Below the pieces are notes generated by a model. It did no database searches. It was given only the letters and a program-made list of their open reading frames with translations, and was not told the DNA's origin. From an uncultured Methylococcus sp. (GTDB taxonomy: Bacteria; Pseudomonadota; Gammaproteobacteria; Methylococcales; Methylococcaceae): a DNA stretch of 44,088 nt. Positions 4,304-43,133 of this stretch are shown here, one piece after another. The DNA lies in NCBI GenBank assembly GCA_964419105.1, contig CAYQOJ010000004.1, forward strand, positions 10,993 to 55,080. The letters are read 5' to 3'. Numbering within the stretch: the stretch's first letter is position 1; each line of letters begins with the position of its first letter. The position numbers and the translations under genes are program-made.

Positions 4304-4315
4304 GGATCCTCACCC

Positions 4316-5732: not shown

Positions 5733-5780
5733 AACTATATAATTATAAACCACATTTTTACTGAATGAAAGGTTCGACGT

Positions 5781-22885: not shown

Positions 22886-23404
22886 ATGCACACACTAATC
22901 ACCTTTCCAAGAAGTGGTGCACACTTTTTTCAAAACTATTTAAAACAGGCCACTGGATATGAGATTGAAAAGACTCATAAGCCTGTGGATATACCGCATG
23001 TTTTGACGATAGTGCGTGATCCAATTGAGTCTATTGCTTCCTTTTCAGCCATGTTAATAGAGTATAACGGGCACTCAGTAGAGGAAACGGTGGCCAAACT
23101 AATAGAAAATTATGAGGCGTACTATACATACTTTTCTCATCATGCAGAATTGGTTATAGATTATAACAAATTGATAACGGAACCAGAAAATACCGTGAGC
23201 AAATTTACAGACATTGCTGGTATCAAGTTTAATAAAATTAGTTATGTTGACGATATTGTGGATATGAAGGATAAGAGGCATTTTAAAACTAGCAAAAATA
23301 AGGATTCATACACTAACTCTATAGACATGCTTAACCGCATGAAAAAAGAACTTGAATCTTGTTATGACAAATATAATAACCTTTTGAGAAAGTCTATATC
23401 ATAG
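22886..23404 (+). CDS. Sulfotransferase-like protein
   Basis: The N-terminal TFPRSGAHFF resembles the PAPS 5-prime-phosphosulfate loop. IVRDPIESIAS resembles the 3-prime-phosphate motif (RDPxxxxxS). TATAAT (22874-22879) lies 6 nt upstream of the ATG. Confidence 0.55.
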   Translation: MHTLITFPRSGAHFFQNYLKQATGYEIEKTHKPVDIPHVLTIVRDPIESIASFSAMLIEYNGHSVEETVAKLIENYEAYYTYFSHHAELVIDYNKLITEPENTVSKFTDIAGIKFNKISYVDDIVDMKDKRHFKTSKNKDSYTNSIDMLNRMKKELESCYDKYNNLLRKSIS

Positions 23405-23945
23405 ACAATTCTGGATCTACAGAGAACCACATAGGAAAACTATATCTTTTGCCAGCAACAGCCTTAACTCCATGGTCATAATCTTTTGCTCTTGGGGGAA
23501 ACATAATAAGTCCTCCATGCTCTGGCTTATACTCAACAGATAATCTTGGGAAGAATATTTCTCCACCCTCCTCTATGTCGGTTAAATATAGAACTGCAGT
23601 GTAATCAATATGCATCCCGCCATCAGTATGAACGTCCATTGTGCTTCCATCGTCCTGTCTGACTAGCCAAAAGTTACATGGATAAACTGTTTTATTAAAC
23701 ATTTCAGATACTTTATCGGTTGCCTTCGATAGAATATGCTCTGCTAGTGGGGCGAGGTCTCCAAGAATGTCTGTATTTGGGTGCAGGTCATGAACGTGAT
23801 ACACCATTTCCTTGGTACCAAACTGTAATGTCCAGCGAGCACCTCTAGGGCTAGCAAAGAATATTGGCAAGTTATTGTCTATATATTCAATTATCCTTGC
23901 AGAGTCTTCTCTGGATATAAAGTCTGAGGCAGTATAAATTTCCAT
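23394..23945 (-). CDS. Prolyl 4-hydroxylase-like 2OG-Fe(II) dioxygenase
   Basis: VHTDGG...TAVLYLTDIEEGGEIFFP...GGLIMFP...YDHGVKAVAGKRYSFPMWF gives the HxD...H facial triad and the P4Hc-type core. The ATG at 23945 is preferred over the GTG at 23951. Confidence 0.8.
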   Translation of the reverse strand: MEIYTASDFISREDSARIIEYIDNNLPIFFASPRGARWTLQFGTKEMVYHVHDLHPNTDILGDLAPLAEHILSKATDKVSEMFNKTVYPCNFWLVRQDDGSTMDVHTDGGMHIDYTAVLYLTDIEEGGEIFFPRLSVEYKPEHGGLIMFPPRAKDYDHGVKAVAGKRYSFPMWFSVDPELSMI

Positions 23946-23990
23946 ATTCACAATTATACCATCACAGCCGTTTCCTGGTATAATGTATTT

Positions 23991-24611
23991 ATGAATAGTG
24001 AATTATTGGCCCCTGGAATTATACAGTATAAAAACGTCATACCAAATTATGATAGGCTCATGACCCTGCTCAACGACGAGTCAGTCTCTTGGAACGATGC
24101 CCTGATTGTGGCAAGCAGAGATCCAAAGGAAGACCCAACGAGTATAGAGCCAAAACTTAATCGTGATATCAGAAACTGTGGCTCCATTGCAATGCCATAT
24201 GACAAATATGAAATGCAGTCCTTTATTCCAGATGAGAGAATGAGGGATGTATACTTTGAGATGCATGACATAATCAAGCCAGTCTTTACTTATTATGAAG
24301 ATGAATACATGAAAGATTTTAAGATTAATGTTAGATCCTGGCACTCTAGATTAGAGTTTTTAAGATATGATGTTGGACAATTCTTTGAGGACCACATTGA
24401 TACCGTTCCAGGAATTACTAGAACAGTGTCTGCAGTTTTATATTTAAATGATGATTACGAAGGCGGAGAAATTTATTTTTCTAGATTTGATTTAAAGATT
24501 AAGCCAGAAAAAAATTCTTTAATTTTGTTTCCTTCAAACTATGTTTATAATCACAGTGCTGAGCCAGTAAAAAATGGTACAAAATACGCAATAGCCACAT
24601 TCCTGGCTTGA
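23991..24611 (+). CDS. Prolyl 4-hydroxylase-like 2OG-Fe(II) dioxygenase
   Basis: EDHIDTV...SAVLYLNDDYEGGEIYF...NSLILFPSNYVYNHSAEPVKNGTKYAIATF. It is a paralog of 41838-42503. TATAAT (23979-23984) lies 6 nt upstream of the ATG. Confidence 0.8.
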   Translation: MNSELLAPGIIQYKNVIPNYDRLMTLLNDESVSWNDALIVASRDPKEDPTSIEPKLNRDIRNCGSIAMPYDKYEMQSFIPDERMRDVYFEMHDIIKPVFTYYEDEYMKDFKINVRSWHSRLEFLRYDVGQFFEDHIDTVPGITRTVSAVLYLNDDYEGGEIYFSRFDLKIKPEKNSLILFPSNYVYNHSAEPVKNGTKYAIATFLA

Positions 24612-24642
24612 TTTATTTTTAGTAATAAGGTATAATAGTTAA

Positions 24643-24870
24643 ATGGAAAAAGTAACTGTATATACCAAGCCCTCATGTGTTCAGTGTGACATGACAAAGA
24701 AAATGCTTGACAAGAACAATATAAATTATGACACTGTTGACATAACTGAAGATATCTCAGCATTTGAGATGGTAAAGAGTATGGGGTTTATGTCTGCTCC
24801 AGTAGTGATTACAGATACAGACTCTTGGGCTGGATTTCAGCCTGATAAGATTATGAAGATCGCCTCTTGA
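24643..24870 (+). CDS. nrdH: NrdH-type glutaredoxin-like protein
   Basis: VTVYTKPSCVQCDMTKKML...MGFMSAPVV...WAGFQPDKI shows the CVQC active site. TATAAT (24631-24636) lies 6 nt upstream. Confidence 0.8.
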   Translation: MEKVTVYTKPSCVQCDMTKKMLDKNNINYDTVDITEDISAFEMVKSMGFMSAPVVITDTDSWAGFQPDKIMKIAS

Positions 24871-24901
24871 CTTACTGCCTGATATAAGGTAGAATGTAAT
24901 G

Positions 24902-25024
24902 ATGGGACAATTTGAATACGCAGTGCCTCTGTCTACCGTTAAACCAGAGGACATCGAAAGAGTTGCAAAAGAATTCTTGGAAAAGAAAAACAAATCAGAG
25001 AAACAAGAGGAAAAAAATGCTTAG
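24902..25024 (+). CDS. Possible 40-aa Lys/Glu-rich peptide
   Basis: TAGAAT (24890-24895) lies 6 nt upstream of the second ATG. It overlaps the groES start by 8 nt. Confidence 0.3.
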   Translation: MGQFEYAVPLSTVKPEDIERVAKEFLEKKNKSEKQEEKNA

Positions 25025-25304
25025 ACCATTACAAGATAAAATTGTTGTAGAAGTAGCACAAGAGGCAGAAAAGACAACAGCATCTGGACTAGTTATTCCA
25101 GGAACAGTAACTGAAAAGCCAAGCGAGGCCATCGTTATTGCTGTTGGGCCAGGTATAACATTAGATAATGGATACACCCTAGTACCAGACCTAAAGCCAG
25201 GCGATAAGGTAGTGTTTTCTAAGTATCAGGGCACCGAAATTGATCATGAAGGCAAGAAGTACATGGTACTTGCGTACCGTGACATCTTTGCGGTAATTGA
25301 GTAA
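25017..25304 (+). CDS. groES: Co-chaperonin GroES (Cpn10)
   Basis: MLRPLQDKIVVEVAQEAEKTTASGLVIPGTVTEKPSEAIVIAVGPG...GDKVVFSKYQGTEI..EGKKYMVL is a canonical Cpn10 pattern, preceded by an AGAGGAAAAAA RBS. Confidence 0.9.
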   Translation: MLRPLQDKIVVEVAQEAEKTTASGLVIPGTVTEKPSEAIVIAVGPGITLDNGYTLVPDLKPGDKVVFSKYQGTEIDHEGKKYMVLAYRDIFAVIE

Positions 25305-25447
25305 TGGGAACATGGGTTGAGATTGTAACTGACCCACACCATATAATTGCTGATTTTATTATGAATATAGCATTTGAGGTAACATTTGCATGGCTAACAT
25401 ACCGTGGAATAATGAGGCTACTAAAGAAAAAGTATGGAATAAAGTAG
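25304..25447 (+). CDS. 47-aa membrane peptide
   Basis: TAATG overlap, then MGTWVEIVTDPHHIIADFIMNIAFEVTFAWLTYRGIMRLLKKKYGIK. Confidence 0.4.
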   Translation: MGTWVEIVTDPHHIIADFIMNIAFEVTFAWLTYRGIMRLLKKKYGIK

Positions 25448-25462
25448 TGGTATACTTTATTC

Positions 25463-25741
25463 ATGGCATCTCATAAAATTATGGACCTCTCCGAAGAGGT
25501 AGTTAGAATTACTCCACTTGGAAAGCACGGTGGTATGGACATTACCTTACAAAATGTCAATGCATCTGGATATATTTATATTGGTGGAGATGAAACACTC
25601 ACTTCTACAAACTATGGATTTAGAATTATGCCCAATCACTCTATCTCATTTGAATTACCCAGCGCAGACGCTTTGTATGCGGTAGCAGATGGCTCAATGA
25701 GTCTTGCAGTTATGATGACTGGTTTGGAAAGTCAGAACTAA
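25463..25741 (+). CDS. Hypothetical beta-rich protein upstream of the fibre-tip paralog
   Basis: 92-aa ORF. TATACT (25451-25456) lies 6 nt upstream, and the stop overlaps the next ATG. Confidence 0.55.
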   Translation: MASHKIMDLSEEVVRITPLGKHGGMDITLQNVNASGYIYIGGDETLTSTNYGFRIMPNHSISFELPSADALYAVADGSMSLAVMMTGLESQN

Positions 25742-26187
25742 TGGCTAGATTTACCCATCCTGCATTTGGAGATGTTGGTGGACTTACAACAGAAATCAAA
25801 TCATATTCACCAGTTTGGTCTGGTGCAGGATTAACATTTACTGGGACACCTGCAATTGGAGAATATGTTAAGATTGGAAATCTTGTCATTGTTCAGATTG
25901 ATGTTGAGTTTGACAATGTTACTAACTTTGGAACTGGAGGCTATTCTCTAACAGTTCCTGTTGCGTCTAAGTACCACACAGATGTATATGGTGGGTCGAT
26001 ACACAAAACAGTTAATCAGGGAATTGATCACTATAGTATAAAGGGTCATATGTCTACAGGGTCATCAACATTTACCATTTGGGCAATTGGAAGTAATGCT
26101 TCTGATGAACCATTTACTCATAACTCGCCAATAAATTTAACTAATGCAGATAAATTCCACATGTCATTTAGTTACATTTGCGAATAA
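25741..26187 (+). CDS. Fibre-tip domain protein (stalk-less paralog of the C-terminus of 4316-4825)
   Basis: GLTFTGTPAIGEYVKIGNLVIVQIDVEFDNVTNFGTGGYSLTVP...HYSIKGH...SDEPF...ADKFHMSFSY aligns with GLTFTGTPTTARYIKNGKLVFVYIDVDLDNITNFGTGQYRLTLP...YYSIKGH...PDEPF...SDRFHISFVY. Confidence 0.75.
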   Translation: MARFTHPAFGDVGGLTTEIKSYSPVWSGAGLTFTGTPAIGEYVKIGNLVIVQIDVEFDNVTNFGTGGYSLTVPVASKYHTDVYGGSIHKTVNQGIDHYSIKGHMSTGSSTFTIWAIGSNASDEPFTHNSPINLTNADKFHMSFSYICE

Positions 26188-26189
26188 TA

Positions 26190-26624
26190 TTATCTAGGCT
26201 CAACTATAAATGCATACTCATGGGACAGAAGTATCCTTGAGTCCCAGTCACTATAATAACTAAATAGTTGGTTTGTCTGTGGAAGATAGACTAAGCATCC
26301 AAAATTAATTAAGGGATGCTCTATCCTTCCATTTAGTTTAACTAAAAAATAGTTGTCTAAATTATTAGATAGGTTGTAATCTTTTATTACCTTATCTAAA
26401 TGCTCAGTCAATTGATTATGTATTTTTGTGGTATTCATAAAGTATTGGTCTTTGCTATATGGGTCAACTGGCTCTTTATAATTAATTATTTTAACAGGCT
26501 CTTCCCAATTTAGGGACTCGTCGATCATGGATTGATGTATTATGAAGAATAGTTTAGTCCTATTTGGTTCGGGAACAACGTCATCTACCCGAAAATTAAC
26601 GTAAATTTCTTTAGTTTCTGCCAT
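26190..26624 (-). CDS. Hypothetical protein
   Basis: 144-aa ORF. TATAAT (revcomp, 26631-26636) lies 6 nt upstream of the ATG. Confidence 0.6.
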   Translation of the reverse strand: MAETKEIYVNFRVDDVVPEPNRTKLFFIIHQSMIDESLNWEEPVKIINYKEPVDPYSKDQYFMNTTKIHNQLTEHLDKVIKDYNLSNNLDNYFLVKLNGRIEHPLINFGCLVYLPQTNQLFSYYSDWDSRILLSHEYAFIVEPR

Positions 26625-26641
26625 ACATAAATTATATCAGT

Positions 26642-26670
26642 TTGACAAGAATGGCGCTGATAAGTATAAT
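26642..26670 (+). promoter_or_regulatory. Consensus sigma70-type promoter for the tRNA
   Basis: TTGACA (26642-26647), exactly 17 nt, TATAAT (26665-26670). The tRNA 5-prime end lies 8 nt downstream. Confidence 0.7.
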
Positions 26671-26678
26671 TGATATAT

Positions 26679-26751
26679 GCCTTTGTAACTCAGTGGATAG
26701 AGTAGCGGACTTCTAATCCGTTTGTCGCAGGTTCGAGTCCTGCCAGGGGCG
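26679..26751 (+). tRNA. tRNA-Arg (anticodon UCU)
   Basis: Manual cloverleaf. The 7-bp acceptor stem has 2 G-U pairs. D arm ACTC/GAGT with a GG loop. Anticodon stem GCGGA/TCCGT with loop CTTCTAA. T arm GCAGG-TTCGAGT-CCTGC. Confidence 0.85.
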
Positions 26752-26775
26752 CAAGTATTGTGGTATAATCTATTT

Positions 26776-27462
26776 ATGGACTATAATCAAAAAGTAATGG
26801 TATTGAAAAACTTTCTTTTAGAATCTGAGGTTGCTGAATTAAAAGAAGCAATTAGATTGGTCAGGGAGCACAAGCAGCCAGAACATGAGGTCCTAGAGTT
26901 TAAGCATTGGTCCAGAATTAATCACGGGATACATATTCCAGATTCAGTATTCAAAAAGTTTCAAGAAGCAGCATGGCAATACGGAGACCCATCTCTTCAA
27001 TTTACCCACCAAACATCATTCATCTACAAGCCAGAACTTGGGGGAACTACTCAATGCCCTCCACATACAGATGGTCATCAGACACAGTTCTCTATGGACT
27101 ATCAGGTTGAGGCAAATGTGGAGTGGCCTTTGTGGGTAGAGGGAGAAAAGTATGTTTTGCAAGACAATGATGTTTTGATTATGAGTGGAAGAAGCCAGGT
27201 TCACTGGAGAGAAGAAAAGCATTTGCAAGAGGGGGAGTATTGCGACATGTTTATTCTTCACTTTGCAGAGCCAGACTACTTAGACAAGCAGGAAAAGGGA
27301 TTAATACAAAATGCCCCAGAAACTTCTTACAAGATGGCTGAAGAAATGTACAGTCCAACACTTGAAGGAACAACCTTGCAGGGTAATGATCCAGAAGATT
27401 CCAAACCAAATGTTTGCGTCAGCAAAGACCAGATAGATCATTCCCAATGCAGTCACGACTAA
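26776..27462 (+). CDS. Cupin/2OG-Fe(II)-oxygenase-like protein with Cys/His C-terminal tail
   Basis: The start at MDYNQKVMVLKN has TATAAT (26764-26769) 6 nt upstream; the track start at 26722 lies inside the tRNA. PPHTDGH...QVHWREEK suggests HxD...H. It is a paralog of 29846-30496. Confidence 0.6.
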   Translation: MDYNQKVMVLKNFLLESEVAELKEAIRLVREHKQPEHEVLEFKHWSRINHGIHIPDSVFKKFQEAAWQYGDPSLQFTHQTSFIYKPELGGTTQCPPHTDGHQTQFSMDYQVEANVEWPLWVEGEKYVLQDNDVLIMSGRSQVHWREEKHLQEGEYCDMFILHFAEPDYLDKQEKGLIQNAPETSYKMAEEMYSPTLEGTTLQGNDPEDSKPNVCVSKDQIDHSQCSHD

Positions 27463-28478
27463 ACAATAAAATATTTTTTCAGATTGCTGCATGGAGAGAT
27501 CCATTCGTTATACAAACAATAGAGCATGCAATTAAAAATGCTTACTCTCCGAAAGATCTAGTTTTTGGAGTTGTTTTTCAGGGTTACGAAGAAGATAAGT
27601 GGATGATTGATAACATACACAATCTTGGGGCAGAAGTACGACTAATAATGATAGATGCTAACGATGCCCCGCTATCATTATGTAAAATTCGTGGCCCAAT
27701 CGGATGTTCTGTTATGCAAGACGAATCATTTTACATACAGACAGACTCTCACACTAAGATGAACCATCATTGGGATATTAGTCTTAGAGCAGAATTGGAA
27801 TTAGCCAATAAATTATTTGGCAAAAGTATTATTACTGCTCAATCTTCAAACTTTTTTAGATGGGACGACGACTTTATTGAGAATAATCAGATATCAATTC
27901 CAGACGAAGAAGTTTTTAAAAATATTGGTGCCCCAGTTGTTGGCAGGCTAGAGGTAAAAAAGGATACAGTTCAGGTTAAAGAAAAGTTTTTTAATGCTAA
28001 CTGTGTATTTGCTTATTCTGATTTTGTTCGTGATGTCCCTCAGCCTTCAGAAATTCTGTTCCAATACGAACAGCCTATGATGGCACTAAGAACGTTTACT
28101 GGCGGGTATTGGATGGTTTCCCCAACTAGATCATATAGCAGTGTATTTGATTACCATAATGGCATGGAGTCTAAAAGCCGTGATAGTTATATAAAGTACA
28201 TTAGATTTGAAGACCCTGTGTGGATGGAAAGATGGGGTAATAAAGAGCAACAAAATAAAGAGTTATATGAAAAGATTTTAAGCGAAGAAATTATAGACAA
28301 AGACAATGGGTTGCTAGATAAAAGAACTTTGGCTGAGTTTATAGACTTTGCAGGATATAACCCGCTAACTCTTGAGGTTACTAGACAGCATGATTTGTAT
28401 GAAGATGGAAACTTCGTTTATGTTAGTCCAGAAGTATTAGAAGAAACAAAAGAAAAAATTAAACTACTTTACAATTGA
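27447..28478 (+). CDS. Glycosyltransferase, Gnt1/GT60-like 'GlcNAc transferase' family
   Basis: FFQIAAWRDPFVIQTIEHAIKNAYSPKDLVFGVVFQ and IQTDSHTKMNHHWD match the YRDP...P..vfvGv.Q and DSH..f..gWD signatures recalled for PF11397. The start at MQSRLNNK overlaps the upstream gene by 16 nt. Confidence 0.65.
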   Translation: MQSRLNNKIFFQIAAWRDPFVIQTIEHAIKNAYSPKDLVFGVVFQGYEEDKWMIDNIHNLGAEVRLIMIDANDAPLSLCKIRGPIGCSVMQDESFYIQTDSHTKMNHHWDISLRAELELANKLFGKSIITAQSSNFFRWDDDFIENNQISIPDEEVFKNIGAPVVGRLEVKKDTVQVKEKFFNANCVFAYSDFVRDVPQPSEILFQYEQPMMALRTFTGGYWMVSPTRSYSSVFDYHNGMESKSRDSYIKYIRFEDPVWMERWGNKEQQNKELYEKILSEEIIDKDNGLLDKRTLAEFIDFAGYNPLTLEVTRQHDLYEDGNFVYVSPEVLEETKEKIKLLYN

Positions 28479-28727
28479 TTCTAGAACAAACTTTGAGGTG
28501 GTGCCAATAACACCATCAATAATGTTGCCATCATGCAATCCAAGAAATGCTGGAAGACCATTGATGTTATACTTTTTAAAATAATAAATTGCTGTTGATG
28601 CATCTGAATTAACATTAACCCAAGATACTGATATTTCTGGATTCTCCTTAATAAACTGCTCAACAATAGGCATCATTGCTTTTGAACTTGGATCCCAATC
28701 ACTAAAAAAGAATACTAATTCTTTCAT
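28464..28727 (-). CDS. Thioredoxin-fold protein lacking the CxxC active site
   Basis: FFFSDWDPSSKAMMPIVEQF...NVNSD...YNINGLPAF has thioredoxin-like layout, with WDPS where WCGPC is expected. There are no Cys in the protein. Confidence 0.55.
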   Translation of the reverse strand: MKELVFFFSDWDPSSKAMMPIVEQFIKENPEISVSWVNVNSDASTAIYYFKKYNINGLPAFLGLHDGNIIDGVIGTTSKFVLESIVK

Positions 28728-29824
28728 TCACTATCCTTGAATACTGAGTCTAGCCTTGTTACCCTGGTAAAGTCTTTGCCAAAATCAGAGAACAAGGATT
28801 TATCCCTCATCCTATTCACAATACGCCTTGACCAAGAATAGCCAGCATCCCCGCCCCATGCTAGCCACATAATGTACCCATTGGACGGATCTGATTGATT
28901 TGCCCAATTCTTTCCCTTTTTGTCGACTTCATGTCGAGAAAAGTATGAATACATTCTCTTAACAGTACTAAGAGAAAGGCTTTCGCCATTTGCTAGTTGT
29001 CGTGCACGTGTCCAGCCTACTGCTGTACCAGCACCTTTAGCCTTACCGTCTTCCTTAAACTTAATTGCTTTTCTTGCTGCTGCTCTTGCTCCTGCTGGAG
29101 GAGAATAAGTCTCAGCCTTGTTAATCACTTTTATTTCTTCTTCAATTTCAATTGCAGATTCCATGTCAATATTTGGCATGTCAATGGGCGTTAAATCGCT
29201 GTATAAGGCTCCTACAGAGTAGGGGGTATACATATAGACCCCATCTTCTTCTTCGAGCATTCTGACGGCTACCGCTGGGTTCTCAGGAGTAGATTCTACT
29301 GCATATGGATTGCCTGGTTGACCATAAGTTCCACCTTCAACCATAATGTGCTCTACCTGTCCTACGATTGGGCCATCTTCTTCAGTTATCAGCATAACGA
29401 AGTCACCCTCTTGGATTCTTTCTTCTGCCTTTTTAACTGGAATACAGTTAGGAACCATTCTTCCATTTCTGCCTGGCTTCATTCCACGCTGAGTATAGCC
29501 TTCCCAGCATGGGTCTGCTTTAGAAACTGGCCACTCTTGTGGATTCTTTATTCCCATACCGCCATCATTTGTTACAGTGTCTTTTTCTTCATATTCTGGA
29601 TCTAGTACAGACTTCCCATCCATTGCTGGTTCGGGCTGTCCTATACCAGAGTTGAGCCTTTTTCTTTTTTCTGGCTGCTCTGCTTCACTCATGTTTATAG
29701 CAGTAATTTGATTTTGAGCAGAGGCTGCGGTATCGTGACATCCCATTACGGTCTTGTCATCATCTTTTAATACAGGGTATCCGCTACACCCGTATGATCC
29801 TTTGGCTCCAATACTATATGGCAT
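28724..29824 (-). CDS. Multi-domain hypothetical protein
   Basis: ATG at 29824 with TATAAT (revcomp, 29831-29836) 6 nt upstream; the track GTG at 29839 lies inside the -10. Motifs are DPCWEGYTQRGMKPGRNGRMVPNCIP and the C-terminal GTAVGWTRARQLANGESLSLSTVKRMYSYFSRHEVDKKG...WGGDAGYSW. Confidence 0.6.
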   Translation of the reverse strand: MPYSIGAKGSYGCSGYPVLKDDDKTVMGCHDTAASAQNQITAINMSEAEQPEKRKRLNSGIGQPEPAMDGKSVLDPEYEEKDTVTNDGGMGIKNPQEWPVSKADPCWEGYTQRGMKPGRNGRMVPNCIPVKKAEERIQEGDFVMLITEEDGPIVGQVEHIMVEGGTYGQPGNPYAVESTPENPAVAVRMLEEEDGVYMYTPYSVGALYSDLTPIDMPNIDMESAIEIEEEIKVINKAETYSPPAGARAAARKAIKFKEDGKAKGAGTAVGWTRARQLANGESLSLSTVKRMYSYFSRHEVDKKGKNWANQSDPSNGYIMWLAWGGDAGYSWSRRIVNRMRDKSLFSDFGKDFTRVTRLDSVFKDSE

Positions 29825-29845
29825 AGTAATATTATACACTATCTC

Positions 29846-30496
29846 TTAGTGACTACACATAGAATGGTCTACTTGGTCTATACTTAGACAGGTTCCTCGC
29901 TTTATTGGCTTTTGAATTGCCAAGGCCTTTGCCTGTCTAGTATCCATGTCTTCTGGGGAAACGGCAAATTCTCCTGCCTCATATCGCTCTTGGAAATTTG
30001 GAACAGCAAATGCTATGTCAAACATATCCACGAACTCTCCAGGCTGTAATGTTTTTTCCTCACGCCAATGCATTTGGTAGCCACCCGCAAACAGTAAAAC
30101 GTCATTATCTTCTAGTTCAAATCTTTCACCCTCTACGACTAAAGCCCATTTGGTATTTGATTCAACCTGATAATCCATTTGAAGTTGATTTTTGGGGGCA
30201 TCCATATGTGGTGGTAATTGTGTGTAGTCTCCATACTTGATGTCATAACAAAATGAAGCATGGTCAGTTCTTTCTAATTCTGGAGATCCCTCACGATGAG
30301 CCACTTCTAAAAACTTTTTCATAACAGAATCTGGGATTGGAATACTGTGATTAATTCTACCCCACCACTCAAACTTCATCTTCTCCGAATACTGTATTTC
30401 GTCTTCACGTACTTTTCTGATAGCCTCTTTAAGTTCTGCACGCTCTTCATCATTAAGAAGATTCTTTACAATCCTTGGCTTAAAATTAAAGTCCAC
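29846..30496 (-). CDS. Cupin/2OG-Fe(II)-oxygenase-like protein (paralog of 26776-27462)
   Basis: Shared blocks are AELKEAIRKVRE, WGRINHSIPIPDSVMKKF, PPHMDA...QMDYQVE, DNDVLLFAGGYQMHWREEK and the tail CLSIDQVDHSMCSH. Confidence 0.6.
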   Translation of the reverse strand: MDFNFKPRIVKNLLNDEERAELKEAIRKVREDEIQYSEKMKFEWWGRINHSIPIPDSVMKKFLEVAHREGSPELERTDHASFCYDIKYGDYTQLPPHMDAPKNQLQMDYQVESNTKWALVVEGERFELEDNDVLLFAGGYQMHWREEKTLQPGEFVDMFDIAFAVPNFQERYEAGEFAVSPEDMDTRQAKALAIQKPIKRGTCLSIDQVDHSMCSH

Positions 30497-31241
30497 CTAT
30501 TGCCTCGCTGTCCTTAAGGAACATCTGTGCAAATCCATAATTGTGTGCAGATCCAAAATGTTGGCTATCAGCACCAGCAATTAGATACATGTCCCCACCC
30601 TTGTGGTTTTGGATGTATTGATAAATTATTTTTGCTAACTCACGATAGTCTGTTTTATTAAAAGATTCAAATTTATCATCATAAAAATCATTTGCTGTTT
30701 GTATATACCCATCGCTAATATCTTCTATGTCCCATGTTCTTGATATCAATTTGATACCATTTGTTTTGCAAAAATTTTCAAACATTAAGTACATCTGTAT
30801 AGAATGTAGAAGCGCAGAGTTTTTATTTAAATGAATTCCTCTCATTATTTCTGGCAAAAGGAAATATATTTCAGATGGCTTACCGTACTTATTTATATAC
30901 TTCATCGCATTGAAAATAATTTCTGTTGATGCTGCTCCTGGATAAGAGAGGTTAAAATATCCGCTAAGTTTTCTTTTCTTAGATAGTTCATTGTATACTA
31001 TCCATGACCAGGTTTTATCTGCATGAATTCCGCATCCATATGTAACTGAGCATCCCAAAAACAGAACATGCTCCCCATCATGATCCTCCTTAAACTCATC
31101 AGACCTAAATCCTAAAGAATTTAGAGTATATTTTACTCCAGCGGGCATCTCATATTCTCTGGATGGATTAATGGTAAAGTCGTATGGACTTTTGATATCT
31201 AAAGATATTGAATCATATGGGTATGGTCTGGCTAATGGCAT
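30486..31241 (-). CDS. SGNH/GDSL-like hydrolase-fold protein (paralog 1 of 3)
   Basis: GFRSDEF...HVLFLGCSVTYGCGI (block I, with GCS in place of GDS) and GADSQHFG (a DxxH-like block V). TATAAT (revcomp, 31248-31253) lies 6 nt upstream of the ATG. Confidence 0.55.
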   Translation of the reverse strand: MPLARPYPYDSISLDIKSPYDFTINPSREYEMPAGVKYTLNSLGFRSDEFKEDHDGEHVLFLGCSVTYGCGIHADKTWSWIVYNELSKKRKLSGYFNLSYPGAASTEIIFNAMKYINKYGKPSEIYFLLPEIMRGIHLNKNSALLHSIQMYLMFENFCKTNGIKLISRTWDIEDISDGYIQTANDFYDDKFESFNKTDYRELAKIIYQYIQNHKGGDMYLIAGADSQHFGSAHNYGFAQMFLKDSEAIGGL

Positions 31242-33568: not shown

Positions 33569-34330
33569 CTATAGACCAAGTTCTTTGCGCTTCTGAGTAG
33601 CCGATATAGCATGAATCTCTGCCCCCAAATCTACTTGTTCGATTTTATAACCAACATCTCTACCATACACAATGTTAGTAATGTTTGGAAGCCTTACCAC
33701 CAATGTGTCTTTGAATATATTTCTGTTATTTTCAAGTATTCGATCTCTAACTTGCGTATAAGTAAGCGGATCTTTTTCCGAAGTTCCATAAGTATTTCTC
33801 ACACCTACTAGCACCTGACTAGTTCTTTTGTGAGCCTCCTCCTTCAATGCCTGATGCCCCTCATGCCATGGCTGATATCTACCAAGTTGCAGGGTACATG
33901 GCGCAGACCAGTCAAACAGATTACCTGCCTGAATAACTGTATCCACTTCCTGTTCTATTGTATACCCATCTAGAATACGAATATCAAATTTGGTTGGCTC
34001 TTGCCACATAGCATTTGTGTCTTCAAATCTCCCAGACTTGATTCTATCAACCCACACAAGAAGGTCTGGCTTTCCAAAAGCATTTCTTGTTTCTTTAGTT
34101 GGACATACAAAATCTACGACTACAGTATTGCCTTGATTAGATAAAAGTTTTGATATCTCTCCAAGTCTTCTGGCATGCTCAACCCTATCCGAAACATCAA
34201 AGCCAAGATCACTATTGATGGTTGCTCTAACCTCATCGGCATTTAGGTGTATAGCATTGATCCGTTCTTTCAATGCCTTTGCCAATACGGTTTTTCCCGC
34301 ACCTGGCAACCCAATAATCTGTATAATCAT
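33569..34330 (-). CDS. Fusion: APS-kinase-like domain plus cytidylyl/adenylyl-transferase-like (HxGH, ISxT) domain
   Basis: N-terminal: GLPGAGKTVLA...LNADEVRATINSDLGFDVSDRVEHARRLGEISKLL, compared with the APS kinase pattern LDGDNVR..LN.DLGFS..DR.ENIRR.GEVAKL. C-terminal: LGRYQPWHEGHQAL (the GxFxPxHxGH motif) and HAISATQKR (ISSTxxR-like). Confidence 0.7.
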   Translation of the reverse strand: MIIQIIGLPGAGKTVLAKALKERINAIHLNADEVRATINSDLGFDVSDRVEHARRLGEISKLLSNQGNTVVVDFVCPTKETRNAFGKPDLLVWVDRIKSGRFEDTNAMWQEPTKFDIRILDGYTIEQEVDTVIQAGNLFDWSAPCTLQLGRYQPWHEGHQALKEEAHKRTSQVLVGVRNTYGTSEKDPLTYTQVRDRILENNRNIFKDTLVVRLPNITNIVYGRDVGYKIEQVDLGAEIHAISATQKRKELGL

Positions 34331-37786: not shown

Positions 37787-37793
37787 TTTTTCC

Positions 37794-38481: not shown

Positions 38482-38571
38482 TTAGTAGATGTGTCCGTTA
38501 CTCTTTTTAATCTTACGGTACCTTTTTGGATTTTTTAAGATAAACCATATGAGTTTAATAGCCTTTATCAT
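38482..38571 (-). CDS. Possible 29-aa basic micro-protein
   Basis: MIKAIKLIWFILKNPKRYRKIKKSNGHIY, with an ATGA overlap to the upstream gene. It is the same length as the Met-2 form of 41749-41841 and about 30 percent identical to it. Confidence 0.35.
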   Translation of the reverse strand: MIKAIKLIWFILKNPKRYRKIKKSNGHIY

Positions 38572-39446
38572 TTTGTAGCCTCCTTGTAGAATTTATCAGA
38601 TATGAAGTGTGTCCAGCAGGTTCCTGGGTGTGCCCCATCCCTAGCCTCTTCCCAATAGGGGAGGTTGTCTGAGTTTGGGTAATATGGAGAATTGGACTTT
38701 CTGTAGGATGGATTTGCTGGTATAAAGGATGTGTCTGGATCCATTAAATTTTTAAAGCCTAAGTTTTTGTATGTATCGTAGTCAGTATTGTTCCAGGTTG
38801 TCCAAATTAATTTTATGCCAGCCTCCTCACAAAAATCTTCAAGACCAAAAATTAATGTTGTTGCCAGCAGAAGATTATCCTCTGCCTGATAATTTTTAGT
38901 GTATCGCTCCCTGTCCTTATCTTTGCTTCCAATAAATGAAGTGTTTACATATGCCTTAATGTACTCTTCTTGCTTTGGAGAATAGTAAATATTTCTTTGT
39001 ATGTCTGGAAAACATAACATTAAATACTTTGGCTTGCCATATTTTCTAATAAACGAATAAACATTTTTAATTATGTGGTGTATAGACTGACCCATATACC
39101 CCAAGTTATAAAAATCAGTTTCATTCCCAGATTCAGAAAATTTATTAGAAACAAGTCTTGGCCAAATATATTCCTCTGGCAACCCTTCACCAAACGTCCA
39201 AGAGCAACCAGAAAACAGTATAGTGGTTTTATCATTATCAAAATTATCAAAGTGCTTTGATCTAAATCCATGACCATTTATTCTGTAAAATACTGGTGGT
39301 CCATCAACCACAAACCCATGACCTATGTTTTCAGTTATATAATATCCAGAGGCACTAAGAAAACCTTCAGGTGGTAGGTTGGTTCTTGTGTCTAAATGAT
39401 CAAGACTATCATGCGATATAAAACCTCTTACATTATCCGAATACAT
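38568..39446 (-). CDS. SGNH/GDSL-like hydrolase-fold protein (paralog 2 of 3)
   Basis: GFRSKHF...TILFSGCSWTFGEGL, YFNLGYMGQS, KYGKPKYLML and EARDGAHPG (DxxH). Confidence 0.55.
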   Translation of the reverse strand: MYSDNVRGFISHDSLDHLDTRTNLPPEGFLSASGYYITENIGHGFVVDGPPVFYRINGHGFRSKHFDNFDNDKTTILFSGCSWTFGEGLPEEYIWPRLVSNKFSESGNETDFYNLGYMGQSIHHIIKNVYSFIRKYGKPKYLMLCFPDIQRNIYYSPKQEEYIKAYVNTSFIGSKDKDRERYTKNYQAEDNLLLATTLIFGLEDFCEEAGIKLIWTTWNNTDYDTYKNLGFKNLMDPDTSFIPANPSYRKSNSPYYPNSDNLPYWEEARDGAHPGTCWTHFISDKFYKEATK

Positions 39447-39449
39447 TTG

Positions 39450-40883: not shown

Positions 40884-41748
40884 GATTTTTCTCCCATTCC
40901 TGTATTGCTACTTTAGACCAATATAAATTATACCCTAATCCGTAGTGACTTCCATCTCTAGCAATCACAAAATAATCTGTATTATCATTATTTAAATAAA
41001 GCCACTTCTGCATATCTTCTGATTTAATTGACACAAAAGTTTCAAAATTCATATTTTTGAAAAACTGCTGTACTGTCTCAAACCCACTATCAAAATTATC
41101 AGACTTCTCTATGTCCCAAGTAAAAGAAATTAAAAGAATGCCATTATCTTTGCAGTATTTTTCTAACATCATGTAGTAGTCATACATTACTAACCTGATA
41201 ACTTCATAATTTCCTTTATCATATTTTACTGTGCATGCAGTTTTTCTTATCGGATCAAACCCATAAAATCGTGACAACTCTGTCAGATGCAAGAAAATAA
41301 CATCTGGCTTTCCATAACTTTTAATATACTTATAGATATTTGATATCATGTCTAGGTTAGATCTTCCAGGCAAACCAAGATTAAAGTATCCAGAGCATGG
41401 AGTTATAGAATTAATATGGTTATAGACTATTTTTGACCACATCTCTTCTTTTTCCAATCCTTCTCCAAATGTATTTGAGTCACCCAGAAAAATAATATGA
41501 TATTTTTCATTGTGGTCATTAGTCAACTCATCTGACCTAAAACCAAGGGAATTAATCTTATCTGCATACGGTTTCCATCTTTTTAGGTGAGACTCTAGAA
41601 CAGTCTCAGACATGGTACCAGAAAATGCCAAAACTAAATCTTCATCAATTGCTGGAGTTATTTTTGCTCTATCATACGAAAGAGGACCCCAAGGACTATA
41701 CCTTACAGAATCCCCGTTGGTATCCTGATACTCAACTGGGGCAGGCAT
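40861..41748 (-). CDS. SGNH/GDSL-like hydrolase-fold protein (paralog 3 of 3; canonical GDS)
   Basis: GFRSDEL...HIIFLGDSNTFGEGL, YFNLGLPGRS, SYGKPDVIFL and IARDGSHYG. Confidence 0.6.
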   Translation of the reverse strand: MPAPVEYQDTNGDSVRYSPWGPLSYDRAKITPAIDEDLVLAFSGTMSETVLESHLKRWKPYADKINSLGFRSDELTNDHNEKYHIIFLGDSNTFGEGLEKEEMWSKIVYNHINSITPCSGYFNLGLPGRSNLDMISNIYKYIKSYGKPDVIFLHLTELSRFYGFDPIRKTACTVKYDKGNYEVIRLVMYDYYMMLEKYCKDNGILLISFTWDIEKSDNFDSGFETVQQFFKNMNFETFVSIKSEDMQKWLYLNNDNTDYFVIARDGSHYGLGYNLYWSKVAIQEWEKNREDSRYK

Positions 41749-41841
41749 TTAGTATATAAACTTTCTCTTCTTATCTATTTTTTTCATTTTTCTAATCCAG
41801 AAAAACATTTTAATATTAGTATAGATCTTTTTTATCATCAT
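41749..41841 (-). CDS. Possible 30-aa basic micro-protein
   Basis: MMIKKIYTNIKMFFWIRKMKKIDKKRKFIY. ATGA overlap upstream and TAAATG junction downstream. Confidence 0.35.
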   Translation of the reverse strand: MMIKKIYTNIKMFFWIRKMKKIDKKRKFIY

Positions 41842-42503: not shown

Positions 42504-42509
42504 GTCTTC

Positions 42510-43115: not shown

Positions 43116-43133
43116 AGTACTATTATACCCTAT

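What the first reader, a model, noticed from the sequence alone, without database searches (positions are those of the whole stretch)
23394..28478. P4H-type dioxygenases beside a Gnt1/GT60-like GlcNAc transferase in a phage with collagen-repeat fibres: candidate hydroxyproline O-glycosylation of virion proteins
Seen in sequence: two divergently arranged P4H-like 2OG-Fe(II) dioxygenases (23394-23945 minus, 23991-24611 plus) carry HxD...H and the YL(N/T)D..EGGE core. A third HxD...H protein lies at 26776-27462. Overlapping its 3-prime end is a glycosyltransferase (27447-28478) with FFQIAAWRDP...LVFGVVFQ and IQTDSHTKMNHHWD blocks, which match my recollection of the Gnt1 'GlcNAc transferase' family (PF11397/GT60). 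Established knowledge: in Dictyostelium and Toxoplasma a cytoplasmic prolyl 4-hydroxylase and Gnt1 act in sequence to build GlcNAc-O-Hyp on Skp1. Giant viruses are known to hydroxylate and glycosylate their own collagen-like proteins. Inference: the window also encodes two Gly-X-Y fibre proteins (3590-4825) with Pro in X and Y positions. A stalk-less paralog of their tip domain sits inside this enzyme cluster (25741-26187). The simplest unifying model is phage-encoded Hyp formation plus O-glycosylation of its own fibres. As far as I know this has not been characterised for a tailed phage.
Basis: partly seen in the sequence, partly recalled or inferred. Interest (0 to 1): 0.85.

Follow-up and report, generated by a model that had tools for sequence, protein, structure and literature searches.

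The report
Phage oxygenase-coupled protein O-glycosylation module
An uncultured freshwater actinobacterial phage carries a GlcNAc-transferase-family enzyme wired to several iron/2-oxoglutarate oxygenases, a pairing also found fused in bacteria, so it most likely hydroxylates and then sugar-coats a protein, but whether that protein is the phage's collagen-like fibre remains unproven.

Summary
23394-23951(-) and 23991-24611(+) pass Pfam's PF13640 cut-off. 27447-28478(+) passes PF11397 (GlcNAc transferase, GT60). The fibre tip paralogue and the two collagen-like fibres are real.

Each of the four PF13640 types abuts, or lies in one block with, a PF11397 transferase in a related phage. In bacteria the two domains sit side by side (SAR86) or in one polypeptide. 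That supports sequential hydroxylation and glycosylation.

Fold matches and bacterial contexts favour a protein acceptor. The oxygenase/transferase genes flank the fibre module in four of five distinct relatives. No result identifies the acceptor. The collagen stalks are short, with few and unconserved Y-position prolines. A poly-threonine fibre gene is an alternative acceptor.

Verdict: new variant of a known kind; interest 0.6.

The parts
26642..26670 (+). Promoter-like site TTGACA-17-TATAAT, a 12/12 match, ahead of tRNA-Arg, the oxygenase and the transferase
   Evidence: It is the only perfect match in 22.5-31.5 kb. The overall count of promoter-like sites is not above the shuffled expectation.
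26679..26752 (+). tRNA-Arg (anticodon UCU), the first element of the unit
   Evidence: ARAGORN.
26776..27462 (+). It is translationally coupled to the transferase. Its C-terminal tail carries C-x-S-x-D-Q-x-D-H-S-x-C-x-H.
   Evidence: 550 family members and the invariant residues. (no Pfam family). (pLDDT 88; fold matches to the PKHD-type hydroxylase 3dkq, AlkB and PHD2). (hhalign to the PF13640-like set: probability 81%, HxD aligned). The gene pair is conserved in L001-L006 and L087.
27447..28478 (+). GT-A glycosyltransferase of Pfam PF11397 (GT60-type 'GlcNAc' family), with an invariant D100-x-H102 metal motif and no signal peptide or membrane anchor visible in the sequence
   Evidence: 72.5 bits. 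(invariant residues). (pLDDT 92). (best PDB matches are ppGalNAc-T2, E 6e-9). (best viral matches are 'Glycosyltransferase, GlcNAc' of uncultured Caudovirales).
23394..23951 (-). PF13640 2OG-Fe(II) oxygenase, P4H-like, with HTD...H
   Evidence: Relatives of this type overlap a PF11397 transferase gene in L007, L008 and L010.
23991..24611 (+). PF13640 2OG-Fe(II) oxygenase, P4H-like, with HID...H...K
   Evidence: In L070 relatives of this type form a P4H-DSBHp-transferase block beside the fibre genes. L178 has the abutting P4H-DSBHp pair there, without a PF11397 hit in the fetched stretch.
25463..26187 (+). A 92-aa protein followed by a 148-aa stalk-less paralogue of the fibre tip domain. The pair travels with the oxygenase/transferase genes in L001, L007 and L043.
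   Evidence: 51% identity to the C-terminus of 4316-4825..
28724..30496 (-). A second DSBHp paralogue (29846-30496) followed by a conserved 371-aa protein of unknown function (28724-29839)
   Evidence: 47% identity between the paralogues. Synteny in L001, L004, L007 and L087.
30486..31241 (-). SGNH/GDSL-like protein, one of three paralogues
   Evidence: invariant G-x-S and D-x-x-H. (best PDB match is a GDSL esterase, but only at E 0.05). The assignment rests on motifs only.
22886..23404 (+). Sulfotransferase-like protein
   Evidence: PF00685, 24.5 bits against a cut-off of 22.
33569..34330 (-). APS kinase fused to a nucleotidyltransferase-like domain with an HxGH motif; a possible supplier of PAPS
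38568..43988 (-). Second tailoring cluster: GT2 (43134-43988), two PF13640 oxygenases (42510-43115 and 41838-42503), an SGNH-like gene (40861-41748), a carbamoyltransferase (39450-40883) and another SGNH-like gene (38568-39446)
   Evidence: In the related contig L043 the same GT2-P4H-P4H run is followed directly by a PF11397 transferase.
3590..4825 (-). Two collagen-like fibre proteins with 14 and 9 Gly-X-Y triplets; candidate acceptors
2..1378 (-). Fibre-module gene that runs off the left end of the window. A ~209-aa conserved N-terminal domain is followed by long poly-Thr, mucin-like tracts that separate small Cys-containing segments. It is an alternative candidate acceptor.
   Evidence: The poly-Thr extension is also present in an independent assembly, L095. 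It is absent from all 98 homologues of the N-terminal domain.

Best explanation
The region is part of a phage-encoded module that hydroxylates a protein and then O-glycosylates it.

The core is one transcription unit: promoter, tRNA-Arg, a divergent Fe(II)/2-oxoglutarate-type oxygenase (26776-27462) and a soluble GT60/PF11397-type transferase (27447-28478).

Proposed steps, all inferred:
1. An oxygenase places a hydroxyl group on a side chain of the target protein. The enzyme could be the coupled one, one of the four PF13640 P4H-like enzymes, or the second paralogue. The residue could be Pro or Lys.
2. The transferase adds a HexNAc from a UDP-sugar to that hydroxyl, as in the PhyA-then-Gnt1 step on Skp1.
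3. The GT2, the carbamoyltransferase, the sulfotransferase with its APS-kinase fusion, and the SGNH-like enzymes may extend and decorate the glycan.

The likeliest targets are the phage's own fibre proteins: the collagen-like stalks, the tip-domain proteins or the poly-Thr fibre.

Shown here: the family memberships, the catalytic motifs, the gene coupling and the comparative linkage. Not shown: the chemistry, the donor sugar and the acceptor.
For: **Families and motifs**
- Four genes pass PF13640 and one passes PF11397.
- The transferase has an invariant DxH motif.
- The coupled oxygenase family has an invariant HxD...HxR pattern, a DSBH fold, and remote homology to the PF13640-like set.

**Coupling**
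- A 16-nt overlap joins the oxygenase and transferase genes, behind a 12/12 promoter.
- The pair is conserved down to 42% transferase identity.

**General linkage of oxygenase and transferase**
- In 6 of 35 viral transferase clusters an oxygenase lies within 300 bp, against 1.4 expected (P about 0.003).
- L043 carries GT2-P4H-P4H-transferase in one run. In L007, L008 and L010 a P4H gene overlaps a transferase gene. L070 carries a P4H-DSBHp-transferase block, and L178 the abutting P4H-DSBHp pair.
- In bacteria, PF13640 is directly adjacent in 17 of 80 loci. One 621-aa polypeptide (L110) holds both domains.

**Protein acceptor**
- The best solved fold matches are mucin-type polypeptide GalNAc-transferases.
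- The known GT60 activities are polypeptide alpha-GlcNAc transferases acting on Hyp or Thr (PMC8724618).
- Bacterial members sit in a T6SS cluster, next to HlyD, and fused to O-FucT and HPAT-like domains.

**Fibres**
- The oxygenase/transferase genes lie within about 3 kb of the fibre module in four of five distinct relatives.
- A tip-domain paralogue travels with the module.
- L074 places the transferase between fibre-like and Thr/Pro-rich genes and an array of five PF13640 genes.
Against: - No acceptor is identified.
- The collagen stalks are short and rich in charged residues. Their few Y-position Pro or Lys residues are not conserved in position.
- Six oxygenases exceed what a handful of sites would need.
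- PF13640 genes are very common in cyanophages: 363 phage records match. Part of the co-occurrence may therefore be background.
- In 19 of 35 viral transferase clusters no oxygenase was detected within 10 kb.
- Members of the coupled oxygenase family also occur as tandem arrays beside DNA polymerase III, RecA and a Cas4-like nuclease, with no transferase nearby.
- The oxygenase model matches AlkB as well as it matches PHD2.
- A published reading of carbamoyltransferase/2OG-oxygenase/glycosyltransferase clusters in cyanophages is capsular-polysaccharide decoration or a secondary metabolite (PMC7824862).
- In this window the fibres lie about 18 kb or more from the enzymes.
Confidence: 0.4

Rival explanations
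1. The transferase performs direct mucin-type O-glycosylation. It adds HexNAc straight onto Thr or Ser of the poly-Thr fibre or other Thr-rich virion proteins, as the T. cruzi and Dictyostelium Golgi GT60 enzymes do. The oxygenases act on something else.
For: - A fibre-module gene carries at least 14 runs of four or more Thr, 84 Thr residues in those runs.
- GT60 includes Thr-directed polypeptide alpha-GlcNAc transferases related to GT27 (PMC8724618).
- The best fold matches are mucin-type GalNAc-T2 complexes.
- In L074 and L079 a Thr/Pro-rich 884-aa lectin-domain protein lies 2 kb from the transferase.
Against: - The poly-Thr extension is absent from all 98 homologues of that fibre's N-terminal domain. 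The transferase-oxygenase pair, by contrast, is conserved in relatives.
- This reading does not explain the translational coupling, the fusions or the adjacency of the transferase with oxygenases.
Confidence: 0.15
2. The enzymes remodel a host envelope glycan or build a small glycosylated metabolite, for example to block superinfection. They do not modify a protein.
For: - A carbamoyltransferase, a sulfotransferase with an APS-kinase fusion, SGNH-like genes and a GT2 are typical glycan-tailoring enzymes.
- Iyer et al. 2021 read similar cyanophage clusters this way (PMC7824862).
- Papers on freshwater actinophages propose cell-wall or DNA glycosylation for their glycosyltransferases (PMC10202952).
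Against: - The bacterial PF11397 contexts sampled here were not polysaccharide loci. They were T6SS, T1SS, O-FucT/HPAT fusions and housekeeping neighbourhoods.
- All the enzymes appear soluble.
- The nearest solved folds are polypeptide transferases.
- The tailoring enzymes could equally decorate a protein-linked glycan.
Confidence: 0.2
3. The module modifies a host cytoplasmic protein as part of host takeover, for example a translation factor or a regulator. This would parallel Skp1 modification in protists or EF-Tu hydroxylation by bacterial PHDs.
For: - SAR86 chromosomes carry the divergent P4H-transferase pair in housekeeping surroundings (UvrD, RpiR, MazG). That implies a cellular protein target there.
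- The oxygenase model matches PHD2.
- The weak PDB hits include a complex with 4iw3. That 4iw3 is the PPHD/EF-Tu complex is my own recollection.
Against: - The module lies next to fibre genes in relatives.
- Fibre-domain paralogues travel with it.
- No candidate host target can be named.
Confidence: 0.12
4. The system is a nucleic-acid modification pathway. The oxygenase hydroxylates a base, as TET/JBP or AlkB-type enzymes do, and the transferase glycosylates it, as in base J or glucosyl-hmC, to evade restriction.
For: - The oxygenase model matches AlkB-family structures at E about 1e-6, and there are faint PF13532 hits.
- Tandem arrays of the family sit beside DNA polymerase III, RecA and a nuclease in L089-L094.
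- Phage TET-plus-glycosyltransferase clusters are known (PMC8256090).
Against: - No TET/JBP family call reaches threshold. The single hit, in 41838-42503, scores 19.8 bits against a cut-off of 34.9.
- The Pfam scans returned no cytosine methyltransferase or hydroxymethylase in the window. Several ORFs between 8 and 22 kb were not scanned.
- Relatives carry ThyX and dCMP deaminase, which suggests ordinary thymine.
- The transferase family and fold point to polypeptide acceptors.
- Bacterial fusion partners are protein O-glycosyltransferase domains.
Confidence: 0.08

Closest known systems
Skp1 hydroxyproline glycosylation pathway of protists: PhyA prolyl 4-hydroxylase, then Gnt1 (GT60), then the GT2-domain enzyme PgtA. 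Pythium has a bifunctional P4H/Gnt1.
   Same: - A soluble, cytoplasmic 2OG oxygenase is linked to a PF11397/GT60 transferase, with a GT2 nearby.
- The linkage reaches gene fusion in bacteria (L110), as it does in Pythium (PMC8724618).
- The logic of hydroxylating and then adding HexNAc is the same.
   Different: - There is no Skp1 in a phage-bacterium system, so the target is unknown.
- The directly coupled oxygenase is not a PHD/PhyA-type or PF13640 member.
- Transferase identity to characterised Gnt1 could not be measured here.
- Extra carbamoyl-, sulfo- and SGNH-type tailoring genes are present.
Mucin-type O-glycosylation initiators: GT60 polypeptide alpha-GlcNAc transferases (T. cruzi, Dictyostelium Golgi) and GT27 polypeptide GalNAc-transferases
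   Same: - A GT-A fold with a DxH metal motif.
- The best solved structural matches are GalNAc-T2 complexes.
- A poly-Thr, mucin-like fibre is encoded in the window.
   Different: - There is no ricin-type lectin domain and no membrane anchor.
- TM-score is only about 0.5 and sequence identity about 12%.
- The association with oxygenases is not a feature of the mucin-type enzymes.
Collagen hydroxylase/glycosyltransferase systems: mimivirus L230, human LH3 with ColGalT1, P4H and P3H, and Bacillus anthracis P4H
   Same: - The nearest solved sequence relatives of the four PF13640 proteins are B. anthracis P4H, P3H1 and LH3.
- ColGalT1 and LH3 appear among the transferase's fold matches.
- The phage encodes collagen-like proteins.
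   Different: - E-values are weak (1e-6 to 1e-2), and PiuC/PKHD-type enzymes score similarly.
- The transferase family differs: GT60-type here, not GT25 or the LH3 type.
- The phage collagen stalks have only 9-14 triplets and few candidate sites.
- The roles of L230 and B. anthracis P4H are cited from my own knowledge.
Virion glycosylation in mycobacteriophages (Freeman et al. 2023, cited in PMC12801897)
   Same: An actinobacteriophage context in which phage-encoded glycosyltransferases are proposed to decorate the phage's own virion proteins.
   Different: As I recall, and not checked here, those systems do not involve oxygenases or a GT60-type enzyme, and they modify capsid or tail-tube C-termini. 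Nothing here shows which virion protein, if any, is modified.
Cyanophage clusters of 2OG oxygenases, carbamoyltransferase and glycosyltransferases (Iyer et al. 2021, PMC7824862)
   Same: - The gene set at 38.5-44 kb is of the same type: carbamoyltransferase, 2OG oxygenases and a glycosyltransferase.
- The window's P4H-like proteins match 363 phage records, mostly cyanophages.
   Different: - Those clusters were read as polysaccharide or metabolite tailoring.
- Here, and in relatives, the oxygenases are tied specifically to a PF11397 polypeptide-type transferase, and the module sits beside fibre genes.
Base J and phage TET-plus-glycosyltransferase DNA hypermodification
   Same: A 2OG oxygenase followed by a glycosyltransferase, in a phage.
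   Different: - The oxygenase is not of the TET/JBP family.
- No companion cytosine methyltransferase was found.
- The transferase family points to polypeptide acceptors.

Membership tests
PF11397 / CAZy GT60 (polypeptide alpha-GlcNAc transferases, including Gnt1) | Sequence match to the family model above the curated threshold | tested here: met
   72.5 bits against a cut-off of 21, E 5.6e-20. All 27 close homologues carry PF11397.
PF11397 / CAZy GT60 | GT-A fold with a DxH-type metal-binding motif, related to the GT27 polypeptide GalNAc-transferase catalytic domain | tested here: met
   D100-x-H102 is invariant in 27 sequences. The model has pLDDT 92. The best PDB matches are GalNAc-T2 at E 6e-9, TM 0.52.
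PF11397 / CAZy GT60 | Use of UDP-GlcNAc as donor, a retaining alpha-linkage, and a polypeptide Hyp or Thr acceptor | not testable with these tools
   This needs enzyme assays. Orthology to Dictyostelium or Toxoplasma Gnt1 could not be tested because no characterised Gnt1 sequence or structure was available (one search found no PDB relative).
PF13640 2OG-Fe(II) oxygenases (P4H / PHD / PiuC superfamily) | Sequence match above the curated threshold, plus the HxD...H triad and a basic 2OG-binding residue | tested here: met
   Scores are 37.8, 62.6, 61.5 and 31.8 bits against a cut-off of 27. H, D and H are invariant in alignment A4, and a K or R lies 9-11 residues after the distal His.
Collagen prolyl 4-hydroxylase clade specifically | Closer to characterised collagen P4Hs than to other PF13640 subfamilies | tested here: inconclusive
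   For 23991-24611 and 41838-42503 the best PDB hit is B. anthracis P4H (E 1e-5 to 1e-6); for 23394-23951 and 42510-43115 it is P3H1. PKHD-type (3dkq) and PiuC enzymes score only 2-3 orders weaker, or better in the case of 42510-43115. NCBIfam gives sub-threshold PiuC-type hits.
Collagen prolyl 4-hydroxylase clade specifically | Hydroxylation of X-Pro-Gly in collagen-like substrates | not testable with these tools
   Candidate sites exist: 3 and 1 Y-position Pro in the two fibres, plus a Pro just before the first Gly of each stalk. Their positions are not conserved.
2OG-Fe(II) oxygenase superfamily, for 26776-27462 and 29846-30496 | A double-stranded beta-helix fold with an HxD...H facial triad | tested here: met
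   H97, D99, H143 and R145 are invariant in 65 sequences. The model has pLDDT 88, with fold matches to 3dkq, AlkB and PHD2 at E about 1e-6. hhalign to the PF13640-like set gives probability 81%. No Pfam, NCBIfam or cultured-phage match was found.
Collagen triple-helix repeat (PF01391) | Uninterrupted Gly-X-Y repeats | tested here: met
   3590-4303 has 14 triplets and scores 32.8 bits against 27.2. 4316-4825 has 9 triplets and scores 21.1 bits, below the cut-off, but the repeat is visible.
TET/JBP DNA base dioxygenase plus glycosyltransferase systems | A TET/JBP-family oxygenase and a companion C5-cytosine methyltransferase | tested here: not met
   The only hit is a sub-threshold PF12851 match, 19.8 bits against 34.9, in 41838-42503. 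The Pfam scans found no methyltransferase in the window, but several ORFs between 8 and 22 kb were not scanned.

The most novel reading that the evidence does not exclude
Tailed phages of freshwater actinobacteria, and many bacteria, possess an oxygen- and 2-oxoglutarate-dependent pathway that hydroxylates a protein and then O-glycosylates it. Its core is a GT60-type polypeptide HexNAc transferase coupled to P4H-like or novel DSBH oxygenases. In the phage, this pathway would coat the fibre proteins with a hydroxy-amino-acid-linked glycan that may be carbamoylated or sulfated. That would be a prokaryotic and viral counterpart, and a possible evolutionary source, of the eukaryotic Skp1 Hyp-glycosylation pathway and of mucin-type initiation.
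Probability: 0.3. Interest if true: 0.85.

Novelty: new variant of a known kind. Interest (0 to 1): 0.6.

Why it matters
**What would be new.** Glycosylation that depends on hydroxyproline or hydroxylysine is regarded as eukaryotic, with giant viruses as the only viral case. If the best reading is right, this would be the first such modification in a tailed phage.

- Receptor-binding fibres coated with an enzyme-built glycan would affect host range, virion stability and recognition.
- Because the oxygenases consume O2 and 2-oxoglutarate, the modification could tie virion properties to oxygen supply and the host's metabolic state.

**The wider finding.** PF13640 oxygenases and PF11397 transferases are neighbours or fused in SAR86, in Burkholderiales and in many viral contigs. 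This points to an unstudied bacterial protein-modification system. It also gives a concrete handle on where the Skp1 pathway and mucin-type O-glycosylation came from.

**Function for common genes.** The result offers a testable role for some of the very common phage '2OG-Fe(II) oxygenase' genes that currently have no known function.

**If it is wrong.** The module would be one more set of auxiliary glycan-tailoring genes of a known kind.

Tried and rejected
1. **Close DNA relatives among cultured phages.** Megablast of 22.8-28.8 kb found nothing. tblastn of the transferase found only two Xanthomonas jumbo phages at about 25% identity. tblastn of the coupled oxygenase found nothing.
2. **A solved structure of the transferase family by sequence.** None exists; only chance hits at E above 0.1 appeared.
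3. **Pfam, NCBIfam and PHROGs names for 26776-27462.** Pfam and NCBIfam gave no usable name. PHROGs calls its family 'ferrochelatase' and calls some PF13640 families 'DNA endonuclease'. I treated these labels as carried-over misannotations, because the sequence motifs and folds are those of 2OG oxygenases.
4. **The poly-Thr fibre as the conserved acceptor.** Rejected as a general explanation: none of the 98 homologues of its N-terminal domain has the extension. It is kept as a strain-specific candidate.
5. **Fetching the rest of the poly-Thr gene.** Only short contigs that break within the repeats were found.
6. **A profile scan of viral contigs with the broad oxygenase alignment A3.** The narrow alignment A2 returned only 8 loci.
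7. **A conserved Y-position Pro or Lys in the collagen stalks.** None was found, apart from a Pro just before the first Gly.
8. **The SGNH assignment of the three paralogues.** It rests on motifs only. The best PDB profile hit, a GDSL esterase, is not significant at E 0.05.
9. **The idea that the divergent P4H pair at 23.4-24.6 kb is the transferase's fixed partner.** Rejected, because the closest relatives lack it there.

Full report
**1. What the window is**

The 44-kb window has about 39% G+C. It encodes a WhiB-type regulator, a mycobacteriophage-type GP88 protein and a DUF932 protein. It also encodes M23 and CHAP lysis enzymes, GroES, a glutaredoxin and one tRNA.

At its left end is a tail-fibre module with two collagen-like proteins. 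Megablast of the 22.8-28.8 kb stretch found no DNA relative among 50,697 deposited phage records. All close protein relatives come from metagenomes.

WhiB is used in the literature as the marker of actinophages. Freshwater 'Ca. Nanopelagicales' phages are described with collagen-like proteins beside the tail fibre and with glycosyltransferases of unknown role (PMC10202952). The window is therefore most likely an uncultured freshwater actinobacteriophage. This is an inference.

**2. Checking the observation**

- The two divergent genes, 23394-23951(-) and 23991-24611(+), both pass Pfam's cut-off for PF13640 (37.8 and 62.6 bits against 27). They carry HxD...H and the YL(T/N)D..EGGE core.
- 27447-28478(+) passes PF11397 'Glycosyltransferase (GlcNAc)' with 72.5 bits against 21. 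The quoted sequence blocks are there.
- 26776-27462 has an HxD...H pattern but no Pfam family.
- 25741-26187 is 51% identical to the tip part of the fibre 4316-4825, E 5e-45.
- The fibres have 14 and 9 Gly-X-Y triplets, with Pro in both X and Y positions.

**3.

The window holds six oxygenases, not three.

- Two further PF13640 genes lie at 41838-42503 and 42510-43115.
- A paralogue of the third oxygenase lies at 29846-30496, 47% identical.

The two extra PF13640 genes sit in a second cluster. It also contains a GT2 (43134-43988), a carbamoyltransferase (39450-40883) and two of three paralogous proteins with SGNH-like G-x-S and D-x-x-H motifs.

An APS kinase fused to a nucleotidyltransferase-like domain lies at 33569-34330.

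**4. The transferase**

Twenty-seven close homologues, all carrying PF11397, share an invariant D100-x-H102 and a WRD motif after the first strand.

The AlphaFold model is confident (pLDDT 92). Its best solved matches are polypeptide GalNAc-transferase T2 complexes (E 6e-9, TM about 0.52). LARGE1, POMGNT1, ColGalT1 and LH3 follow.

No solved structure matches by sequence. In the viral structure library the best matches are 'Glycosyltransferase, GlcNAc' proteins of uncultured Caudovirales, Megaviridae and a Pandoravirus. The family has at least 514 relatives in IMG/VR contigs.

A review from the West laboratory describes GT60 as polypeptide alpha-GlcNAc transferases related to GT27 but lacking the ricin-type domain. 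The family includes the enzyme that initiates Skp1 Hyp-glycosylation and the enzymes that initiate mucin-type glycosylation in protists (PMC8724618).

Membership of PF11397 is therefore met. Donor, linkage and acceptor cannot be tested here.

**5. The transferase's true partner**

The ATG of the transferase lies 16 nt inside the 3' end of 26776-27462. A perfect TTGACA-17-TATAAT site and tRNA-Arg(UCU) precede the pair.

The overlapping pair is kept in every close relative examined: L001-L004, L005/L006 and L087. This holds down to 42% transferase identity.

An exhaustive profile search finds 550 members of this oxygenase family. H97, D99, W117, H143 and R145 are invariant in 65 of them. No member passes any Pfam family model, and there is no match among cultured phages.

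The model (pLDDT 88) is a double-stranded beta-helix. It matches a PKHD-type hydroxylase, AlkB-family enzymes and HIF prolyl hydroxylase PHD2 about equally (E about 1e-6, TM 0.45-0.54). Profile-profile comparison links it to the PF13640-like set with the HxD motifs aligned (probability 81%).

Its substrate class cannot be read from the fold.

**6. Are the P4H-like genes linked to the transferase?**

In the closest relatives (L001-L003) no P4H-like gene was detected in the fetched flanks. The divergent pair at 23.4-24.6 kb is therefore not a fixed neighbour.

Yet each of the four window types has a near relative that abuts, or lies in one block with, a PF11397 transferase in a related phage.

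| Window type | Arrangement in relatives |
|---|---|
| 23394 type | P4H gene overlaps a transferase gene in L007, L008, L010 |
| 23991 type | P4H-DSBHp-transferase block in L070; abutting P4H-DSBHp pair in L178 |
| 42510 and 41838 types | GT2-P4H-P4H-transferase run in L043 |

I grouped the viral transferases at 70% identity, giving 35 groups. In 6 of them an oxygenase lies within 300 bp, against 1.4 expected from random placement (P about 0.003). In 19 groups none was detected within 10 kb. The groups are not fully independent, so this figure is indicative only.

**7. The same linkage in bacteria**

There are 217 PF11397 relatives in bacterial and archaeal genomes.

- A PF13640 gene is directly adjacent in 17 of the 80 loci fetched. 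Many of these are SAR86 genomes, where the two genes are divergent neighbours 30-60 bp apart.
- In a Burkholderiales MAG a single 621-aa polypeptide holds both domains (L110).
- In a Ca. Azotimanducaceae MAG (L131) a PF13640 gene precedes a 1155-aa protein. That protein combines an HPAT-like domain (weak hit), a protein O-fucosyltransferase domain and PF11397.
- In Yersinia pekkanenii the transferase sits inside a T6SS cluster.
- In Magnetococcus a transferase-methyltransferase fusion lies next to HlyD.

A fusion of the two activities is also known for the Skp1 pathway in Pythium (cited in PMC8724618).

These results make sequential action of oxygenase and transferase on one substrate the most economical reading. 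They also favour a protein substrate.

**8. Which protein?**

Evidence here is circumstantial.

*For the fibres*
- In four of five distinct relatives with a homologue of the 3590-4303 fibre, oxygenase or transferase genes lie within about 3 kb of the fibre module. These are the L070 group, L178, L180-182 and L183. L179 is the exception.
- The 92-aa protein and the tip-domain paralogue travel with the enzymes in L001, L007 and L043.
- In L074 the transferase lies between fibre-like genes and five PF13640 genes. Those fibre-like genes include a Thr/Pro-rich lectin-domain protein.

*Against collagen proline as the site*
- The stalks have only 9-20 triplets.
- They are rich in charged residues.
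- They carry 0-5 Y-position prolines at positions that are not conserved.

*An alternative acceptor*

A fibre-module gene runs off the left end of the window. It has at least 14 runs of four or more Thr, totalling 84 Thr residues. This is the kind of sequence that Thr-directed GT60 and GT27 enzymes glycosylate.

The extension is specific to this phage. None of the 98 homologues of its N-terminal domain has it.

**9. Rival readings**

*Glycan or metabolite tailoring.* This has a published precedent for cyanophage clusters of carbamoyltransferases, 2OG oxygenases and glycosyltransferases (PMC7824862). The window's P4H-like proteins belong to the group common in cyanophages, matching 363 phage records.

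*Nucleic-acid modification.* It is suggested by the AlkB-like fold matches. It is also suggested by tandem arrays of the oxygenase family beside DNA polymerase III, RecA and a nuclease in L089-L094, with no transferase nearby.

Against it: there is no threshold TET/JBP call, and the Pfam scans found no methyltransferase. Relatives encode ThyX and dCMP deaminase.

*A host-protein target.* This is suggested by the housekeeping context of the pair in SAR86.

**10. Verdict**

The enzyme logic, hydroxylate and then glycosylate, gains real comparative support. A protein acceptor is favoured. The specific claim of hydroxyproline O-glycosylation of the collagen-like fibres remains one possibility among several.

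The system is best filed as a new variant of a known kind: the oxygenase-plus-GT60 logic of the Skp1 pathway, found in a phage and bacterial setting. It has a new oxygenase family as the coupled partner and extra tailoring enzymes.

I put 0.4 on a protein hydroxylation/glycosylation module aimed at phage fibres. Collagen proline as the site is only one part of that. Interest is 0.6.

Noticed in passing
window 2-1378 (-), running off the left end: A fibre-module gene whose conserved ~209-aa N-terminal domain is followed by extraordinary poly-Thr, mucin-like tracts (for example VPTTTTTTTAAPTTTTTT and repeated APATTTTT). The tracts separate small Cys-containing segments. Assemblies break within the repeats. 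All 98 homologues of the N-terminal domain lack the extension.
   Followed up: partly
window 33569-34330 (-) and 22886-23404 (+): An APS kinase fused to a nucleotidyltransferase-like domain with an HxGH motif, plus a sulfotransferase-like gene. Together they may form a phage-encoded route for PAPS supply and sulfation. The kinase fusion is conserved in L001 and L004.
   Followed up: partly
window 38568-43988 (-): A second tailoring cluster: GT2, two PF13640 oxygenases, an SGNH-like gene, a carbamoyltransferase and another SGNH-like gene. In L043 the same GT2-P4H-P4H run is followed directly by a PF11397 transferase.
   Followed up: partly
window 27405-27462 (the C-terminal tail of 26776-27462), and the same tail in 29846-30496: An invariant C-x-S-x-D-Q-x-D-H-S-x-C-x-H tail that could bind a metal. 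It occurs only in the closest subfamily of the new oxygenase family. The model has low confidence there (pLDDT about 50). Its function is unknown.
   Followed up: no
window 26642-26752 (+): A perfect sigma-70 consensus promoter lies directly upstream of a tRNA-Arg (UCU) that heads the oxygenase-transferase unit. A second extended -10 site (TG-TATAAT) overlaps the 3' end of the tRNA.
   Followed up: partly
window 28724-29839 (-): A 371-aa protein of unknown function (phrog_2859 region, with a PCWEGY...VPNC motif). It is always found beside the second oxygenase paralogue and a thioredoxin-like gene in relatives. It could be a partner or a substrate.
   Followed up: no
window 31702-32040, 37121-37942 and 37794-38423 (-): A small protein and both lysis enzymes (M23 peptidase and CHAP) carry Pro/Ala/Lys-rich tails of the AKKAP type. 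The M23 and CHAP reading frames overlap by about 150 nt as listed.
   Followed up: no
L110:1132-2997 and 3029-4600; L131:4745-9476: Bacterial fusions involving PF11397. One polypeptide holds PF11397 and PF13640. Another holds PF11397 and a methyltransferase. A 1155-aa protein with HPAT-like, O-FucT and PF11397 domains follows a PF13640 gene.
   Followed up: partly
L154:2828-11641 (Yersinia pekkanenii); L121:6519-9545 (Magnetococcus): A PF11397 transferase is embedded in a type VI secretion cluster (TssF, TssG, TssA, a fimbrial-like gene, the transferase, an OmpA-like gene). A transferase-methyltransferase fusion lies next to an HlyD-type secretion protein.
   Followed up: no
L089-L094, about 2440-6639: Four tandem paralogues of the new oxygenase family lie between DNA polymerase III alpha and RecA on one side and a Cas4-like nuclease on the other, with no PF11397 transferase nearby.
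   Followed up: partly
L074/L079: 5247-7901 (-) and 10915-17846: An 884-aa protein with a C-type lectin domain, Thr/Pro-rich linkers, an acidic region and C-terminal hydrophobic segments lies 2 kb from a PF11397 transferase. Five PF13640 genes and a PhyH-like gene follow the transferase.
   Followed up: partly
PHROGs annotations: PHROG families that match these 2OG oxygenases carry names such as 'DNA endonuclease', 'DNA endonuclease V' and 'ferrochelatase'. RefSeq cyanophage records also label such genes 'ferrochelatase'. These are probably propagated misannotations.
   Followed up: no
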